Source of the DNA: a virus | Virus record (IMG/VR): IMGVR_UViG_3300005529_000024 | Coordinates: 110,396-174,395 of that record | Length of the DNA stretch: 64,000 bases | Direction: 5' to 3' (one strand) | Shown here: positions 4,165 through 33,431 of the stretch, piece by piece | How the letters are laid out: every line of letters begins with the position of its first letter | How positions within the stretch are numbered: position 1 is the stretch's first letter | Notes under the pieces: model-generated | Seen by the model: only the letters and a program-made list of their open reading frames with translations | The model's database searches: none | What the model was told of the DNA's origin: nothing | Position numbers and translations under genes: made by a program

Positions 4165-4256
4165 AGGCCCTTAGTTTAACGGCAAAATCCTGGACTTATA
4201 ATCCAGAAGCTCTAGATTGGAGCGCGATACGGGTTCGAATCCCGTAGGGCCTACCA
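4165..4256 (+). tRNA. tRNA, anticodon TAT (nominal Ile), long variable arm, encoded CCA
   Basis: Acceptor AGGCCCT/AGGGCCT + A-CCA; anticodon stem CTGGA/TCCAG with loop CTTATAA; V-arm GCTCTA-GAT-TGGAGC; T arm ACGGG-TTCGAAT-CCCGT. Confidence 0.92.
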
Positions 4257-8267: not shown

Positions 8268-8798
8268 ATGATATTCTTTACGAGCGATACACATTTTTAT
8301 CATAAGAATGTAATCAGATACTCTAATCGTCCGTTTTCCTCAGTAGAAGAGATGAATGAGGCACTGATCGAAAAGTGGAACTCTACTGTATCTGTTAAGG
8401 ATGAAGTGTATCACCTTGGCGATGTGTCTTTCTCCAGTCTAGGTAATACTCTTTCTATCTTGGATAGATTGAATGGTAGAAAGAAACTGATCCTGGGCAA
8501 CCATGATAGAACTCTTTCAAAGAAATCTGATTTCAAGTCGAGGTTCGAGTGGATCAAAGATTATTATCTTCTTAAAGTCAATGATCCGGATGCGCCTGAT
8601 GGCGTTCAGCAAATAGTTCTTTTCCACTATGCGCTTAGGACTTGGGAAAAGATACACTATGGATCTTGGAATCTTTTTGGTCATAGCCATGGTACTCTAC
8701 CCGATAATATATACCTTAAGGCTATGGATGTTGGCGTAGATTGTAATAATTATAAACCTATAAGCTATGAGAGAGTAAAAGATATTATGCGTGTGTGA
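8268..8798 (+). CDS. Calcineurin-like metallophosphoesterase
   Basis: SDTH, LGD, GNHD, GHSH motifs. Confidence 0.88.
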   Translation: MIFFTSDTHFYHKNVIRYSNRPFSSVEEMNEALIEKWNSTVSVKDEVYHLGDVSFSSLGNTLSILDRLNGRKKLILGNHDRTLSKKSDFKSRFEWIKDYYLLKVNDPDAPDGVQQIVLFHYALRTWEKIHYGSWNLFGHSHGTLPDNIYLKAMDVGVDCNNYKPISYERVKDIMRV

Positions 8799-9688: not shown

Positions 9689-10066
9689 TTACAAGGGTTT
9701 CTATACCTGTAACTGGCTGTTACGATGACGAATTAGTGTTTTTTAGCTTATATTTTGAGGGTCATCGATCCCCTTGTAAAAAGGATGTCTTGGATGTCCT
9801 CAAAGATACCATTGATACTTATTCAGATCTTCCAGAAGCTGTTGTTTCTTTCGAGATGAGTAAGGAAGCTTATGAAATCACACAGTCTGTACATGACTGG
9901 CAATATGTCAACGATCATTCCATTGTTGAGACAAACACATTTGTAGAACATCCTAAATGGGGTCGTCAACCCTATTCCTGGCGTATTCTCGATATCCATA
10001 ATCTAGACAGGCTCACAATTCGTCGTCTCAACAAGGAGTTGGGCCGGGAAGATTAGAAATCCTTAT

Positions 10067-21319: not shown

Positions 21320-21348
21320 TTGACAAATTTATAAGATCCTGCTATACT
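21320..21348 (+). promoter_or_regulatory. sigma70-type promoter for the Y RNA array
   Basis: TTGACA-N17-TATACT, 16 nt upstream of unit 1. Confidence 0.85.
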
Positions 21349-21364
21349 ATAAAAAGTTTAAGAT

Positions 21365-21428
21365 TTGGTGGGTCGGAGTCAATGGGTTATCTTGGATAAT
21401 ACCCCATGACGAAAAAATTATCCACCAA
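21365..21428 (+). ncRNA. Y RNA-like unit 1 (minimal)
   Basis: TTGGTGG/CCACCAA terminal stem, GGGTCG paired with TTATCC (bulged C), inner stem GTCAATGGG/CCCATGAC followed by TTATC. Confidence 0.8.
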
Positions 21429-21434
21429 TAGGTT

Positions 21435-21509
21435 AGATGGGTCGCTGTTGATGGGTTATCAAACATATTATATTGATTAATCTCCCATTGACGACAAAAT
21501 TATCCATCT
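21435..21509 (+). ncRNA. Y RNA-like unit 2 (minimal)
   Basis: AGATGG/CCATCT terminal stem, GGGTCG/TTATCC, inner stem GTTGATGGG/CCCATTGAC then TTATC. Confidence 0.8.
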
Positions 21510-21515
21510 TTAAAT

Positions 21516-21644
21516 ATGTGGGTCGATTTTCAGTTGGTTATCGAATTTGAATCGAGAGACATGGGTTCGAATCCCATACGCTAGTTATGCTGGCGTTAGC
21601 TTAGTGGATAGAGCACTTTCCGACTGATACTAACTTATCCACAT
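21516..21644 (+). ncRNA. yrlA: YrlA-type Y RNA with circularly permuted tRNA-like domain (unit 3)
   Basis: ATGTGG/CCACAT, GGGTCG/TTATCC, TCAGTTGG/CCGACTGA; inside: T arm ATGGG-TTCGAAT-CCCAT, loop-closed 7-bp acceptor ACGCTAG/CTGGCGT, TA, D arm GCTT-AGTGGATA-GAGC. Confidence 0.9.
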
Positions 21645-21724: not shown

Positions 21725-21733
21725 TTAAAAATC

Positions 21734-21840
21734 CCTAAGCTCAGTCGCTAAGCGTCTGAGAGGGTCGCCAAGCGTCCCGTCTTAGGTGAGATCCCGCATC
21801 CATGATAATATCTGCCCATATTGTCTGGATACCACCTCCT
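21734..21840 (+). ncRNA. Unassigned structured element after the Y RNA array (also contains CCTA-N14-GCGTCT at 21734-21757)
   Basis: Twin hairpins with repeated GTCGCYAAGCGTC enclosed by CCTAAG/CTTAGG; then a 13-bp hairpin followed by ACCACCTCCT. Confidence 0.45.
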
Positions 21841-21841
21841 C

Positions 21842-21883
21842 AAAATGGCATGATGGCCTATAAAGCTGTCATGCCATTTTTCT
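21842..21883 (+). terminator. Intrinsic terminator closing the ncRNA cluster
   Basis: AAAATGGCATGATGGC/GCTGTCATGCCATTTT 16-bp stem plus T run. Confidence 0.85.
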
Positions 21884-21967
21884 GTCTTTTTTCCGAAATT
21901 CTTATAAAAATCTTTATTCTTTACCAATTAATTTACCAAATAAGCTGGTTTTTAGTCTCCTTCTCTA

Positions 21968-30691: not shown

Positions 30692-30712
30692 AAGTGGGTC
30701 AATTATCTACTT
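30692..30712 (+). promoter_or_regulatory. Y-RNA-mimic hairpin in Ro60 mRNA leader (putative autoregulatory operator)
   Basis: AAGTGGGT-CAATT-ATCTACTT hairpin containing GGGTC and TTATC as in the Y RNA units, 5 nt before the AAGGAG SD. Confidence 0.6.
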
Positions 30713-30730
30713 AATAAAAGGAGAGATCAA

Positions 30731-32317
30731 ATGGCGAAATACACAAAGCATTTCCAAACGAAGCAGACCAAACAAACTGAACCGATTCCCGGTAAGAACC
30801 AGGTGAAAAATAATGCTGGTGGTTATACGTTCAAGATTACCCCAGAGGCGCAGTTTAAGCGATTCTTGATTCTTGGTAGTGATGGTGGTAGTTATTATCA
30901 GACCGAGAATGACTTGACTGTTGAAAATGCTGAGAATGCAGTTGAGTTTATTAAGCAGGATGGCGTTATGGCAGTAAAGCTTATTGCTGAAATCTCAGAT
31001 CAGGGTAGAGCAGCTAAGAATTCACCGGCTATCTTTGCTCTGGCTCTTGTTTGTACATTCGGTAGCCCTGAAGCAAAAGCTTGCGCGTATAAGGCGATTC
31101 CTGTTGTGTGCCGTATCGGTACTCATATCTTTGAGTTTTGCCAGTACATTCAAGATCTTCGTGGGTGGAGCCGTGGGCTTAGAAAGGGTGTTGCTTCTTA
31201 CTTTGAGAAAAAGGTTGCTGATTCCAATCTGGCGCTTGACGTTATCAAGTATCGTCAGCGTGATGGTTGGACACATAAGGATGTTCTTCGTTTGTCTCAT
31301 CCTTCAATCAGCGGTAATGATGTCAACTCGGTTTTAAAGTGGGCTGTTGGTAAAGAGGTTACAGAGAAAAACGCGCTCATCAGTGCATTTGAACAGATTC
31401 AGAAGACGACCAATGTTAATGAGGCTGTTAAGCTGATTGAGGAGAATAACCTCCCTCGTGAAGCTGTTCCTACGGATCTGCTTAATTCTGCGGATATCTG
31501 GAATGCTTTGCTTGTTAAAATGCCGATGAAAGCCATGATCCGCAATCTTGGAAAAATGACTTCCATTAACCTTCTTAAGTCTAACTTTGGTGAACAGGAG
31601 AAGAGAGTTATTGCTTCTCTTACTAATGTAGAGGCTTTGAGCAAGGCACGTATCCATCCTCTGGATATCCTTGTTGCTCTTAAGATCTACAGTCAGGGTC
31701 ATAGTGAAAGAGGATCTCTCTCATGGCGTCCTGTTCCTGGTATTGTTGAAGCTTTGAATGAGGCTTTCTATCTTTCTTTCAAGAATGTAGCTCCACTTGG
31801 TAAGAACTTCCTTATCGGACTTGATGTCTCTGGGTCTATGTCTAGCCGTATTTCAGACAGCAATTCATTGACTTCACGTGAAGCAACTTCAGCTATTTCT
31901 CTGTTGCTGGCCCGGACTGAGAAGTCGGCAGAGGTGTTTGCTTTCTCTAACTCGTTCATGCCGTTGACTGTTCACAAGAATCTGAGCCTTGAGGGATTGA
32001 TGCGTAAGACAGAAAGTCTCCCATTCCAGGGTACTGATTGTGCTCTTCCAATGTTGCATGCTACCCGTAATAAGATTGACAACATTGATTGTTTCATCGT
32101 GTTAACCGATAGTGAAACGTGGGCTGGAAATATTCATCCTAGCCAAGCTTTACTTGATTATCGGAGACAGTTTAATCCGGAAGCCAAATTGATTGTTTTG
32201 GCAACTGTTCCTTCTGCTTTCACGATTGCTGATCCGACCGATGCAGGCTATTTGGATATCGCTGGATTCGATTCAAGCGTGTATTCGGTCATGCAAGAAT
32301 TCCTGAAAGGATGGTGA
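30731..32317 (+). CDS. rsr: Ro60/TROVE-domain ribonucleoprotein (Rsr) with vWA domain
   Basis: NNAGGY, RFLILGS, RGWSRGLRK, KYRQRDGWTHKDVLRLSHP, MIRNLGKM, vWA MIDAS DVSGSM, GTDCALPM, TDSETW. Confidence 0.95.
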   Translation: MAKYTKHFQTKQTKQTEPIPGKNQVKNNAGGYTFKITPEAQFKRFLILGSDGGSYYQTENDLTVENAENAVEFIKQDGVMAVKLIAEISDQGRAAKNSPAIFALALVCTFGSPEAKACAYKAIPVVCRIGTHIFEFCQYIQDLRGWSRGLRKGVASYFEKKVADSNLALDVIKYRQRDGWTHKDVLRLSHPSISGNDVNSVLKWAVGKEVTEKNALISAFEQIQKTTNVNEAVKLIEENNLPREAVPTDLLNSADIWNALLVKMPMKAMIRNLGKMTSINLLKSNFGEQEKRVIASLTNVEALSKARIHPLDILVALKIYSQGHSERGSLSWRPVPGIVEALNEAFYLSFKNVAPLGKNFLIGLDVSGSMSSRISDSNSLTSREATSAISLLLARTEKSAEVFAFSNSFMPLTVHKNLSLEGLMRKTESLPFQGTDCALPMLHATRNKIDNIDCFIVLTDSETWAGNIHPSQALLDYRRQFNPEAKLIVLATVPSAFTIADPTDAGYLDIAGFDSSVYSVMQEFLKGW

Positions 32318-32321
32318 TCAT

Positions 32322-33431
32322 ATGAGCACATTAAAAGTAGAGATCTGTAGAATTGATGGTGTGGAAAAGCATCCTAATGCCGATAGGCTGGATATTGTCA
32401 AGATTGCCGGTTGGCAATGTGTCACACAGAAAGATGCTTTTAAGGTAGGGGATTCCTGCGTCTACATACCGATTGACTCGATATTGCCCCTCGAAGTTGA
32501 GAGTAAGATCTTTGGTCCTGATTCTAAGATTAAGCTTGATAAATCTAGGGTCAGATCAATTAAACTTCGTGGTGCCATTTCACAGGGTATGGCTGTAAGA
32601 CCATCTACTCTCGGTATTCCTGATGATCAGGATGTTGGTACAGATGTTTCTGAGATTCTTGGCATTAAGAAATATGAACCGCCTACCAGGGAGGTGTCTC
32701 ATAACAGTCAGCTTAATCCTAAACCAAAGCGAAGCTGTAATCCTAATTTCAAGAAGTATACTGGTATCGAGAACTGGAAATGGTATCCAACACTTTTCGA
32801 TAGCACAGAAGAGGTCGTAGTTACAGAGAAGATTCATGGTACAAACTTCCGCTGTGGCTATATTCCTTACTGTGCAAATACTTGGTGGAAGAAGGTTCTG
32901 AAGTTTCTTCACCTTACACCTCAGTATGAGTTTGTGTATGGTAGCCACAATGTTCAGTTGCAGAATAAACTGCGCTATAAAGGCTACTACAGCAATAACG
33001 TGTATCTTAAAATCGCTAAGCAATATAACCTTGAGTCTGTTCTGAAGAACTTTCCTGGTTTTGTTGTATACGGGGAAATCTACGGTGATAGGATACAGAA
33101 GGGATATAATTACGGGTGTGGTACAGGAGAGCATAAGCTCGTTGTTTTTGATGTCATGCACGATGGCAGTTATCTAGACTTTCCTGTCTTTAGTGTTTTT
33201 TGTAATTTGAGACGGCTACCTATGGCCCCTGTTGTTTATCATGGCCCGTATGATGGCGATAAGATTCTGTCCCTTACCAAAGGCAATTCTGTTCTCTGTC
33301 CTGAGCAGAGGGTTCGTGAGGGAGTCGTTGTGAAACCATTAAAAGAACAGATAACATTTATGGGTAGAAAGATTTTAAAAGTCATCTCTGATGATTATCT
33401 GTTGAACAACGATAACACTGACTTTCATTAA
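32322..33431 (+). CDS. ATP-dependent RNA ligase (DRB0094/Rnl5-like) with N-terminal OB domain
   Basis: HPNADRL N-terminus, TEKIHGTN motif I, YGEIYG, FDV, REGVVVK, LKVIS. Confidence 0.9.
   Translation: MSTLKVEICRIDGVEKHPNADRLDIVKIAGWQCVTQKDAFKVGDSCVYIPIDSILPLEVESKIFGPDSKIKLDKSRVRSIKLRGAISQGMAVRPSTLGIPDDQDVGTDVSEILGIKKYEPPTREVSHNSQLNPKPKRSCNPNFKKYTGIENWKWYPTLFDSTEEVVVTEKIHGTNFRCGYIPYCANTWWKKVLKFLHLTPQYEFVYGSHNVQLQNKLRYKGYYSNNVYLKIAKQYNLESVLKNFPGFVVYGEIYGDRIQKGYNYGCGTGEHKLVVFDVMHDGSYLDFPVFSVFCNLRRLPMAPVVYHGPYDGDKILSLTKGNSVLCPEQRVREGVVVKPLKEQITFMGRKILKVISDDYLLNNDNTDFH

What the first reader, a model, noticed from the sequence alone, without database searches (positions are those of the whole stretch)
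21516..21644. Y RNA unit 3 is a complete circularly permuted tRNA, including an anticodon-like arm (UUG)
Seen: inside the Ro60 stem the order is TCGA-ATTTGAA-TCGA (4-bp stem, 7-nt loop with U33, TTG, A37, A38), GAGAC variable loop, a canonical T arm, a 7-bp acceptor stem closed by a TTATG loop (no CCA end), U8-A9 and a canonical D arm with GG. This is a tRNA opened between positions 26 and 27 and grafted onto the Y stem. Known: YrlA RNAs mimic tRNA with T, closed acceptor and D stems. Inference: the retained Gln-like anticodon loop on an unchargeable body could be a decoy for anticodon nucleases, synthetases or modification enzymes, or a bait that brings such enzymes to Ro60 and the RNA ligase.
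Basis: partly seen in the sequence, partly recalled or inferred. Interest (0 to 1): 0.8.

Follow-up and report, generated by a model that had tools for sequence, protein, structure and literature searches.

The report
Phage Y RNA with anticodon arm
This phage gene encodes a known kind of small RNA (a YrlA-type Y RNA, partner of the Ro60 protein) built from a rotated tRNA. Its extra hairpin, read in the literature as a "variable arm", behaves like a true tRNA anticodon arm in about 140 phage and bacterial relatives.

Summary
Window 21516-21644 (+) is a YrlA-type Y RNA: a Ro60-type stem closing a complete tRNA body in rotated order. It is the third of four Y RNAs in one promoter-to-terminator unit of a phage that also encodes Ro60 and an RNA ligase.

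The hairpin 21541-21555 is real and conserved. It is not a new structure: it is the "V" stem-loop of Chen et al. 2014, read there as a variable arm.

In 142 phage and bacterial relatives picked by stem pairing alone:
- the loop has 7 nt, with U33 in 89%, a purine at 37 in 91% and A38 in 84%;
- positions 34-36 carry 42 different triplets;
- positions 36 and 37 are coupled as in genuine tRNAs (U36-A37, G36-G37);
- 4-5 nt of variable loop follow the hairpin;
- the Ro60 helix joins through linkers at the 26/27 break.

So the anticodon-arm reading is well supported. The "Gln" label is not, because the triplet varies freely. The decoy or bait function is untested, and a competitor role for YrlA is already in print (Hughes 2020). 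I found the anticodon-arm reading in no paper I could search. This scan has noted it before on other DNA (e1-3496498, e1-5352943).

The parts
21320..21348 (+). sigma-70-type promoter (TTGACA, 17 nt, TATACT with TG) upstream of the Y RNA array
   Evidence: 11 of 12 matches
21365..21429 (+). Y RNA unit 1, a short form without a tRNA module (GGGTCG ... GGGTTATC ... TTATCC)
   Evidence: matches the nematode sbRNA model RF01656 at E 2.7e-4
21435..21509 (+). Y RNA unit 2, short form
21516..21644 (+). Y RNA unit 3, the YrlA type: a Ro60-type stem plus a complete permuted tRNA body
21516..21523 (+). 5' strand of the lower (Ro60-type) stem, followed by the GTCGA motif; it pairs with 21637-21644
21530..21537 (+). 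5' strand of the upper closing helix; it pairs with 21620-21627
   Evidence: pair probability 0.8-1.0
21538..21541 (+). TTAT, the conserved YUAY of YrlA RNAs that precedes the 'V' hairpin
   Evidence: PMC4201824
21540..21556 (+). anticodon-arm look-alike (the published 'V' stem-loop): A-G mismatch plus TCGA/TCGA, 7-nt loop 21545-21551, triplet TTG 21547-21549
21557..21560 (+). variable loop AGAC; C21560 is position 48, partner of G15 (21604) in the Levitt pair
21561..21577 (+). T arm, 5 bp with loop TTCGAAT
21578..21596 (+). 7-bp acceptor stem closed by TTATG; no free ends and no CCA
21597..21615 (+). U8, A9, the D arm (GCTT-AGTGGATA-GAGC) and A26
21616..21619 (+). CTTT linker between position 26 and the 3' strand of the closing helix
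21659..21724 (+). Y RNA unit 4, short form
21732..21832 (+). fifth structured element before the terminator; function unknown
   Evidence: -37.2 kcal/mol, z -4.6
21842..21890 (+). intrinsic terminator of the array
30731..32317 (+). Ro60 (TROVE plus Ro60 vWA domains)
32322..33431 (+). ATP-dependent RNA ligase (PF09414 with the PHA02142 OB domain; phrog_968), 4 nt after Ro60

Best explanation
Unit 3 is the YrlA-type member of a four-unit phage Y RNA operon.

Shown by sequence and comparison: its GGGTCG/TTATCC stem is the kind bound by Ro60, and it closes a whole tRNA written in the order anticodon arm, variable loop, T arm, acceptor 3' strand, loop, acceptor 5' strand, D arm. The hairpin 21541-55 is the family's 'V' stem-loop. 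Across the family it obeys the rules of a tRNA anticodon arm: a 5-position stem, a 7-nt loop, U33, a purine at 37, A38, tRNA-like coupling of positions 36 and 37, and 4-5 nt to the T stem. The triplet 34-36 is free. The Ro60 helix is attached by single-stranded linkers at the 26/27 break, so it does not replace the anticodon stem.

Inferred: the RNA folds into a full L-shaped tRNA look-alike that displays an anticodon loop while Ro60 holds its other end. The loop is read by a protein that recognises tRNA anticodon loops, such as a modification enzyme, an anticodon nuclease or a repair enzyme. The particle then works as a competitor, sensor or bait in tRNA damage and repair, together with the RNA ligase encoded beside Ro60. 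Which protein reads the loop is not known.
For: Identity: the sequence parse; the Rfam YrlA match; Ro60 and an adjacent RNA ligase in the same phage and on the same strand; one promoter and one terminator around the array.

The hairpin forms: pair probability 0.86-0.94 when only the T, acceptor and D arms are enforced.

The hairpin is conserved. Among 160 phage and 97 bacterial closed-acceptor elements not selected for any hairpin, the canonical frames (7-nt loop ending 10 or 9 nt before the T stem) hold at least 4 of 5 pairs in 64+33 and 40+14 cases. Other frames hold roughly 5-35, apart from frames nested in the same hairpin.

In the window's own GGGTCG...GGTTATC subfamily (58 sequences, all matches of the scan), 30 reach at least 4 of 5 pairs despite a fixed A-G at 27:43. 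About 10 more show the same hairpin with one further mismatch.

Covariation: all 5 pairs of the helix change on both sides. The score is 0.82 against 0.23 when shuffled and 0.10-0.27 when slid. Against the window's TCGA/TCGA, relatives have TCTC/GAGA, TCGC/GCGG, TCCA/TGGG and TCTT/AAGG.

Loop composition was not used for selection. In 142 elements U33 is 127, R37 is 129, A38 is 119 and G32 is 1, with 42 triplets. In the 49 perfect stems U33 is 49/49.

Coupling of 36 and 37: U36 with A37 in 72/76, G36 with G37 in 30/41, and G37 after a non-G36 only twice (Fisher 2.5e-19, not corrected for relatedness). The same rule holds in 1727 genuine tRNAs from the same loci.

The variable loop is RGGUY, as in class I tRNAs.

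Junction: the closing helix starts mostly 7-10 nt after the D stem and 1-4 nt before position 27.

These elements are Ro60-linked: 26 of 37 with enough flank have Ro60 in the fetched DNA, always on the same strand, at a median of less than 1 kb.

A GenBank annotator's tRNA finder called one such YrlA 'tRNA-Thr (tgt)'.
Against: No protein is shown to touch the loop.

The outer two stem pairs are weak: U-G or mismatches in 32 and 50 of 142 elements.

A32 is far commoner than in tRNAs (18% against 1%), and A36 and C36 are under-represented.

About 40% of closed-acceptor elements, and S. Typhimurium YrlA whose structure is solved, have no such hairpin. So the arm is not essential to YrlA function in general.

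S. Typhimurium YrlA is not cut by the anticodon nuclease active there (PMC7790460).

The statistics count sequences, not independent events.

Ro60 lies 9 kb from the array here, further than the usual 4 kb or less.
Confidence: 0.55

Rival explanations
1. The hairpin descends from a tRNA anticodon arm but is kept only for folding or nuclease resistance of the tRNA-like module. Nothing reads the loop, and the triplet drifts because it is neutral.
For: The triplet varies freely (42 kinds). Many YrlAs lack the hairpin. Chen et al. 2014 discuss protection from nucleases as one role of the tRNA fold. U33 and a purine at 37 are also what a stable U-turn loop needs (my own knowledge of tRNA structure).
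Against: The tRNA-like coupling of positions 36 and 37 has no obvious folding reason in an RNA that does not decode. A38 and the near-absence of G32 are kept. A plain stabilising hairpin would be expected to drift to tetraloops or other loop sizes, yet 7 nt dominates.
Confidence: 0.25
2. This is the published reading. The hairpin is the counterpart of a long (class II) tRNA variable arm, and the helix leading to the Ro60 site is the counterpart of the anticodon stem. The RNA would then have no anticodon-arm equivalent.
For: Chen et al. 2014 model it this way. In the crystal structure of S. Typhimurium YrlA the helix that continues to the Ro60 module does occupy the anticodon-stem position. Some relatives, for example L028:3974, have that two-strand stem directly after position 26 and no hairpin.
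Against: In hairpin-bearing members the closing helix is separated from the D stem by 7-10 unpaired nt (4 plus A26 here) rather than by the single nucleotide 26. After the hairpin comes a full 4-5-nt RGGUY variable loop. By my own knowledge of class II tRNAs, 1-2 nt would be expected there, and variable arms have 3-5-nt loops without a U33/R37 signature. Here loops are 7 nt with that signature.
Confidence: 0.12
3. It is a permuted tRNA gene that is processed (opened at the acceptor loop, joined at 26/27) into a decoding tRNA-Gln(UUG).
For: All tRNA parts are present. M. smegmatis YrlA is cut by RNase P and receives CCA (PMC4201824). An RNA ligase is encoded in the phage.
Against: No bulge-helix-bulge or other known processing signal is visible at the junction. 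The closing stem carries the Ro60-type motif shared with three non-tRNA units in the same transcript. Gln identity elements are absent. Triplets in relatives include ones not used by bacterial tRNAs, such as AUU, AGU and AUG.
Confidence: 0.03
4. The hairpin is a chance palindrome (TCGA...TCGA) that overlaps the conserved TTATC motif.
For: The stem has only four Watson-Crick pairs, and the isolated hairpin is worth only -1.8 kcal/mol. TTATC is conserved for other reasons in all four units.
Against: The same position, loop size and loop signature recur with compensatory changes in dozens of relatives.
Confidence: 0.02

Closest known systems
YrlA RNAs (Rfam RF02553; S. Typhimurium, M. smegmatis, mycobacteriophage ET08; Chen et al. 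2014 PMC4201824; structure in Wang et al. 2018, 10.1101/312249)
   Same: A Ro60-type stem with a GNCGA motif; T arm, then closed acceptor stem, then D arm; conserved YUAY; the 'V' stem-loop upstream of T; tRNA tertiary-contact nucleotides; encoded with Ro60 on the same strand; phage-borne examples are known.
   Different: It scores 29 bits against a gathering score of 69. Ro60 lies 9 kb away rather than within 4 kb. The unit sits inside an array with three short Y RNAs. The ligase partner is an ATP-dependent RNA ligase, not RtcB. The solved S. Typhimurium RNA has no V hairpin and 'lacks the anticodon loop'. Here, and in most relatives I collected, the hairpin has full anticodon-arm character.
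D. radiodurans Yrn1
   Same: A Y RNA for which Chen et al. 2014 drew a potential 'anticodon arm' with a 5-bp stem.
   Different: In Yrn1 the loop has 6 nt, the arm lies between the T and D elements, there is no V arm, and the tRNA likeness is partial. Here the arm precedes the variable loop and T arm exactly as in tRNA.
Circularly permuted tRNA genes of Cyanidioschyzon merolae and Thermofilum (cited in 10.1101/312249)
   Same: A closed acceptor end, with the 5' and 3' ends of the transcript pairing elsewhere in the cloverleaf.
   Different: Those are processed into decoding tRNAs by the splicing endonuclease and a ligase. No such signal is seen here, and the closing helix is a Ro60 site.
tmRNA and the TYMV tRNA-like structure
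   Same: tRNA mimics with T-arm and acceptor likeness. The tmRNA model gives a weak partial hit on the T arm.
   Different: They have a free CCA end and are aminoacylated. tmRNA lacks an anticodon arm, and SmpB stands in for it.
tRNAs with a capped Y module in place of the anticodon loop
   Same: The same two modules, a tRNA body and a Ro60-type helix, next to phage Ro60.
   Different: The permutation is opposite: open acceptor ends, a Y helix capped by a tetraloop, and no anticodon loop.

Membership tests
YrlA (Y RNA-like A, sensu Chen et al. 2014) | Order T arm, closed 'AS' stem-loop, D arm, enclosed by a stem formed by the RNA's two ends | tested here: met
YrlA (Y RNA-like A, sensu Chen et al. 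2014) | GNCGAA(N)G motif near the 5' end (presumed Ro60 contact) | tested here: inconclusive
   GTCGAT at 21522-27 matches 5 of 6. The sibling units have GTCGGA, GTCGCT and GTCGCC. Ro60 binding was not tested.
YrlA (Y RNA-like A, sensu Chen et al. 2014) | Nucleotides of the tRNA tertiary contacts (U8, A14, G15:C48, G18 G19, T54 psi55 C56, A58) | tested here: met
   All are present by sequence. Folding in vivo was not tested.
YrlA (Y RNA-like A, sensu Chen et al. 2014) | Conserved YUAY before the V region | tested here: met
   TTAT at 21538-41 (PMC4201824)
YrlA (Y RNA-like A, sensu Chen et al. 2014) | Encoded on the same strand as a Ro60 gene, usually within 4 kb | tested here: inconclusive
   Same strand and same phage, but 9.1 kb upstream of Ro60
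YrlA (Y RNA-like A, sensu Chen et al. 2014) | Rfam RF02553 gathering score (69 bits) | tested here: not met
   29.2 bits, E 3e-4 on 651 bases and 2e-5 on the genome. The model has no V hairpin and misaligns that stretch.
YrlA (Y RNA-like A, sensu Chen et al. 2014) | Bound by Ro60/Rsr; carries D and psi55 modifications | not testable with these tools
   Needs immunoprecipitation and modification mapping
Genuine (decoding) tRNA | Free 5' and 3' ends at the acceptor stem, a CCA-acceptor end, and detection by tRNA models | tested here: not met
   The acceptor is closed by TTATG. ARAGORN and RF00005 do not call it.
Genuine (decoding) tRNA | Anticodon arm: 5-bp stem, 7-nt loop, U33, purine at 37 | tested here: met
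   (4 Watson-Crick pairs plus an A-G mismatch here)
Class II tRNA variable arm (the published reading of the hairpin) | A stem-loop between position 45 and position 48 with a short loop and 1-2 nt before the T stem; the anticodon stem begins right after nucleotide 26 | tested here: not met
   A 7-nt loop, 4-5 nt before the T stem, and a closing helix 5 nt (family: 7-10 nt) after the D stem. The class II criteria are from my own knowledge.

The most novel reading that the evidence does not exclude
The 'V' stem-loop of most YrlA RNAs, bacterial and phage, is a working anticodon stem-loop mimic kept under tRNA-grade constraints, with a freely changing triplet. These Y RNAs would then be complete tRNA look-alikes that present chosen anticodon loops to enzymes that read such loops. 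Candidates are anticodon nucleases of defence or toxin systems, position-37 or position-34 modification enzymes, and repair ligases. Ro60 would hold the RNA, and different copies within one phage would carry different triplets as a repertoire of decoys or sensors.
Probability: 0.35. Interest if true: 0.8.

Novelty: new member of a known kind. Interest (0 to 1): 0.6.

Why it matters
What the tRNA-like domain of bacterial and phage Y RNAs does has been open since 2014. The published view is that it mimics only the tRNA elbow and lacks an anticodon loop. If the common 'V' hairpin is an anticodon arm held to tRNA rules, the list of candidate partners narrows to proteins that read anticodon loops. 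The question then becomes directly testable:
- map modifications at positions 34 and 37;
- offer the RNA to anticodon nucleases and to TrmD and the t6A enzymes;
- swap triplets.

It would also tie phage Ro60-ligase modules to the conflict over tRNA cleavage between phages and host defences. For genome annotation, such elements are sometimes called as tRNA genes: one is 'tRNA-Thr' in GenBank MW584167.

Tried and rejected
- DNA similarity of the array to isolated phages: no match.
- Ro60-based search for kin in viral contigs: one locus only, 41% identity.
- Pattern TGGGTCG..GGTTATC alone: mostly chance hits, with two useful loci.
- MAFFT alignment of the 102 five-nt-variable-loop sequences (A3) introduced gaps in the 5' strand. 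I did not use it, and counted pairs in fixed frames by script instead. A1 put the length difference at the 5' end and was not used either.
- A rival two-strand anticodon stem GAGAG(21554-58)/CUUUC(21616-20) is 4.7 kcal/mol worse, has probability about 0.01, and would leave a 2-nt variable loop.
- G3-U70 in the closed acceptor (21592 with 21582) as an alanine-identity mark, as in tmRNA: not enriched in the family (12 of 142, like other positions). Dropped.
- Pairing of YUAY with loop positions 36-38 as a pseudoknot: rejected on geometry, since there is no linker between that pairing and the 3' stem strand (inference only).
- Gln identity: the acceptor end does not fit (sequence plus my own knowledge of GlnRS identity).
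- Papers not held: Burroughs and Aravind 2016 and Sim et al. 2020, Annu Rev Microbiol. 'Not in print' therefore rests on an incomplete library.
- No other YrlA match in the 174-kb genome, which has one tRNA gene only.

Full report
**What is there.**
The window is the last 64 kb of a 174-kb IMG/VR phage record with a T4-type portal gene. Between a strong sigma-70-type promoter (21320-48) and an intrinsic terminator (21842-90) lie four units. Each begins with GGGTCG, holds a TTATC motif and ends with TTATCC or AATCC. A fifth, strongly folding element follows (z -4.6).

Units 1, 2 and 4 fold as short Y-RNA-like stem-loops. Units 1 and 2 even match Rfam's nematode stem-bulge (Y-like) RNA model at E 2.7e-4. 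Unit 3 (21516-21644) is the only one with a tRNA-like insert, and it is the only YrlA match in the genome (29.2 bits against a gathering score of 69). Ro60 (TROVE plus vWA domains) lies 9 kb downstream on the same strand. An ATP-dependent RNA ligase follows it after 4 nt.

**Check of the observation.**
- hairpin TCGA/ATTTGAA/TCGA at 21541-55;
- then GAGAC;
- a canonical T arm;
- a 7-bp acceptor stem closed by TTATG;
- U8-A9;
- a canonical D arm with GG;
- A26.

Two stems formed by the flanks enclose all of this. If only the T, acceptor and D arms are enforced, ViennaRNA returns exactly this structure at -39.0 kcal/mol, against -39.3 unconstrained. The hairpin pairs have probability 0.86-0.94. 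A competing helix, GAGAG/CUUUC, has about 0.01.

**Relatives.**
DNA and Ro60 searches gave almost no close kin, so I scanned collections for the architecture itself.

Two pattern scans of viral contigs and one of bacterial genomes did not ask for any hairpin. A script then required a T arm, a closed 7-bp acceptor and a D arm, and removed ARAGORN-called tRNAs. This left 160 phage and 97 bacterial elements. Where at least 3.5 kb of flank was available, 26 of 37 had a Ro60 homologue in the fetched DNA. It was always on the same strand, at a median of less than 1 kb. These are therefore YrlA loci.

I counted pairs in every frame (loop length 3-10, distance 7-13 from the T stem). The anticodon-arm frames stand out. 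A 7-nt loop ending 10 or 9 nt before the T stem gives 64 and 33 of 160 phage elements, and 40 and 14 of 97 bacterial elements, with at least 4 of 5 pairs. Unrelated frames give roughly 5-35. The only other peaks are frames nested in the same hairpin.

**The loop.**
The 142 elements were selected on stem pairing alone. Their loop composition is therefore an independent read-out.

| Feature | 142 YrlA elements | 1727 genuine tRNAs of the same loci |
|---|---|---|
| U33 | 127 (89%) | 96% |
| Purine at 37 | 129 (91%) | 98% |
| A38 | 119 (84%) | 75% |
| Position 32 | G once; A in 18% | A in 1% |

Among the 49 elements with perfect stems, U33 is 49/49. Positions 34-36 carry 42 different triplets, and copies within one phage differ.

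Positions 36 and 37 are coupled as in tRNAs. U36 is followed by A37 in 72 of 76 cases and G36 by G37 in 30 of 41. G37 follows another base only twice (Fisher 2.5e-19, not corrected for relatedness). Genuine tRNAs give 601/609 and 206/393.

The 5 nt after the hairpin read RGGUY, the class I variable loop.

**The stem.**
On a gap-free alignment of the 40 elements with a 4-nt variable loop, window included (A2), all five pairs change on both sides. The covariation score is 0.82, against 0.23 when shuffled and 0.10-0.27 when slid. That is as good as the T stem. Percent paired is inflated by my selection, but the compensatory changes are not. The outer two pairs are weak (U-G or mismatches).

**The window's own subfamily.**
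A scan for GGGTCG...GGTTATC...T arm returned all 61 matching stretches of the viral collection. Together with matches already in hand this gave 58 distinct sequences, again unselected for a hairpin. In the register GGTT-ATCNN, 30 have at least 4 of 5 pairs although 27:43 is a fixed A-G. About 10 more show the same hairpin with one more mismatch. Examples set against the window's ATCGA-ATTTGAA-TCGAG are:
- ATCTC-CTTTCCT-GAGAG;
- ATCGC-CTTTTAA-GCGGG;
- ATCCA-CTCATAA-TGGGG;
- ATCTC-CTGTCAA-GAGGG.

**Where the Ro60 helix joins.**
In 130 of the 142 elements a closing helix of at least 5 bp was found. It starts mostly 7-10 nt after the D stem (5 nt here) and 1-4 nt before position 27. An anticodon-stem replacement would start after the single nucleotide 26, as it does in Rfam's YrlA consensus and in some relatives without a hairpin (L028:3974).

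**What is known.**
Chen et al. [quoted passage not shown] Wang et al. 2018 state that YrlA 'lacks the anticodon loop'. They discuss an origin from dimeric tRNA transcripts in which the first tRNA's anticodon arm went into the Ro60 stem.

The published phage ET08 YrlA has the hairpin CTC-ATTGAAA-GAG followed by AGGTC. One YrlA of a Mycobacterium abscessus prophage is annotated 'tRNA-Thr (tgt)' in GenBank. Hughes et al. 2020 suggest that the YrlA tRNA domain could act as a competitive inhibitor of an anticodon nuclease.

So the hairpin is known and the competitor idea is in print. I did not find the reading of V as an anticodon arm under tRNA-like constraints in the papers I could search. Two key reviews and Burroughs and Aravind 2016 were not held. 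Earlier agents of this scan reached the same reading on other phages (e1-3496498, e1-5352943).

**Mechanism.**
Shown: the identity as a YrlA-type RNA, the anticodon-arm character of the hairpin, and the link to Ro60 and a ligase.

Inferred: the loop is read by a protein. The 36-37 coupling in an RNA that cannot decode is hard to explain by folding alone. The conserved UUC or AUC start of the 5' strand, whatever the triplet, argues against repeated capture of real tRNA arms.

I put 0.55 on 'anticodon-loop mimic presented to a tRNA-loop reader while tethered to Ro60'. The alternatives are:
- 0.25 for a relic kept for folding only;
- 0.12 for the variable-arm reading;
- 0.03 for processing into a real tRNA;
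- 0.02 for chance.

The 'Gln' label should be dropped. The specific decoy-for-anticodon-nuclease idea is perhaps 0.15-0.2 on its own.

**Verdict.**
This is a real feature, a new member of a known RNA family, and a correct and useful structural reading. Its functional part remains open.

Noticed in passing
L002:7976-8103, 8374-8501, 9798-9919: Upstream of the Ro60 gene of another phage (41% identical Ro60) lie three ~125-nt tRNA-shaped genes with open acceptor ends. Their anticodon arm is replaced by a Y-type helix capped by GCAA (CTTGACCG-GCAA-CGGTACG) plus a GTTATC motif. This is the opposite circular permutation of YrlA. Earlier notes of this scan describe the same design.
   Followed up: partly
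window 4165-4256: The genome's only tRNA gene is called tRNA-Ile(UAU), yet it carries a 19-nt insertion in the variable region, like a class II tRNA. That is unusual for an Ile tRNA.
   Followed up: no
window 21732-21832: A fifth element lies between Y unit 4 and the terminator. It has twin small hairpins inside a CCTAAG/CTTAGG stem plus a long hairpin, folds at -37.2 kcal/mol (z -4.6) and contains another GGGTCG.
   Followed up: partly
window 21364-21510: Units 1 and 2 together match Rfam's nematode stem-bulge RNA family (RF01656, a Y RNA relative) at 30.8 bits, E 2.7e-4. The match rests on the GGUC...GGGUUAUC...UUAUCC features. The UUAUC motif of animal Y-like RNAs is thus shared by this phage's Y RNAs.
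   Followed up: no
window 21582 with 21592: The closed acceptor stem of unit 3 has G3-U70, the alanine identity pair used by tmRNA. It is not enriched in the family (12 of 142), so it is probably incidental.
   Followed up: yes
L473:2564-2642 (GenBank MW584167, M. abscessus prophage prophiGD43A-5): A YrlA beside a 'Ro-like RNA binding protein' is annotated as tRNA-Thr (tgt). The annotator's tRNA finder read the hairpin as an anticodon arm. A BrnT-like toxin-antitoxin pair lies just upstream.
   Followed up: no
L518 (- strand, about 5328 of the reverse complement), L259, L340: These Y RNAs have the same GGGTCG...GGTTATC handle. They keep the anticodon-like hairpin and the T arm but seem to lack the acceptor stem, or both the acceptor and D arms. 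They look like reduced versions of the module.
   Followed up: no
142 YrlA hairpin loops: A at position 32 is 18% in YrlA loops against 1% in genuine tRNAs of the same loci. A36 and C36 are under-represented (8-9% against 21% each), and U36 is over-represented (54% against 35%). No explanation yet.
   Followed up: no
window 30694-30713: The Ro60 leader holds GTGGGTCAATTATCTAC, a miniature of the GGGTC/TTATC ends of the array units, just before the AAGGAG ribosome site. Another note of this scan (e1-5659081) flagged it. I only read the sequence.
   Followed up: no
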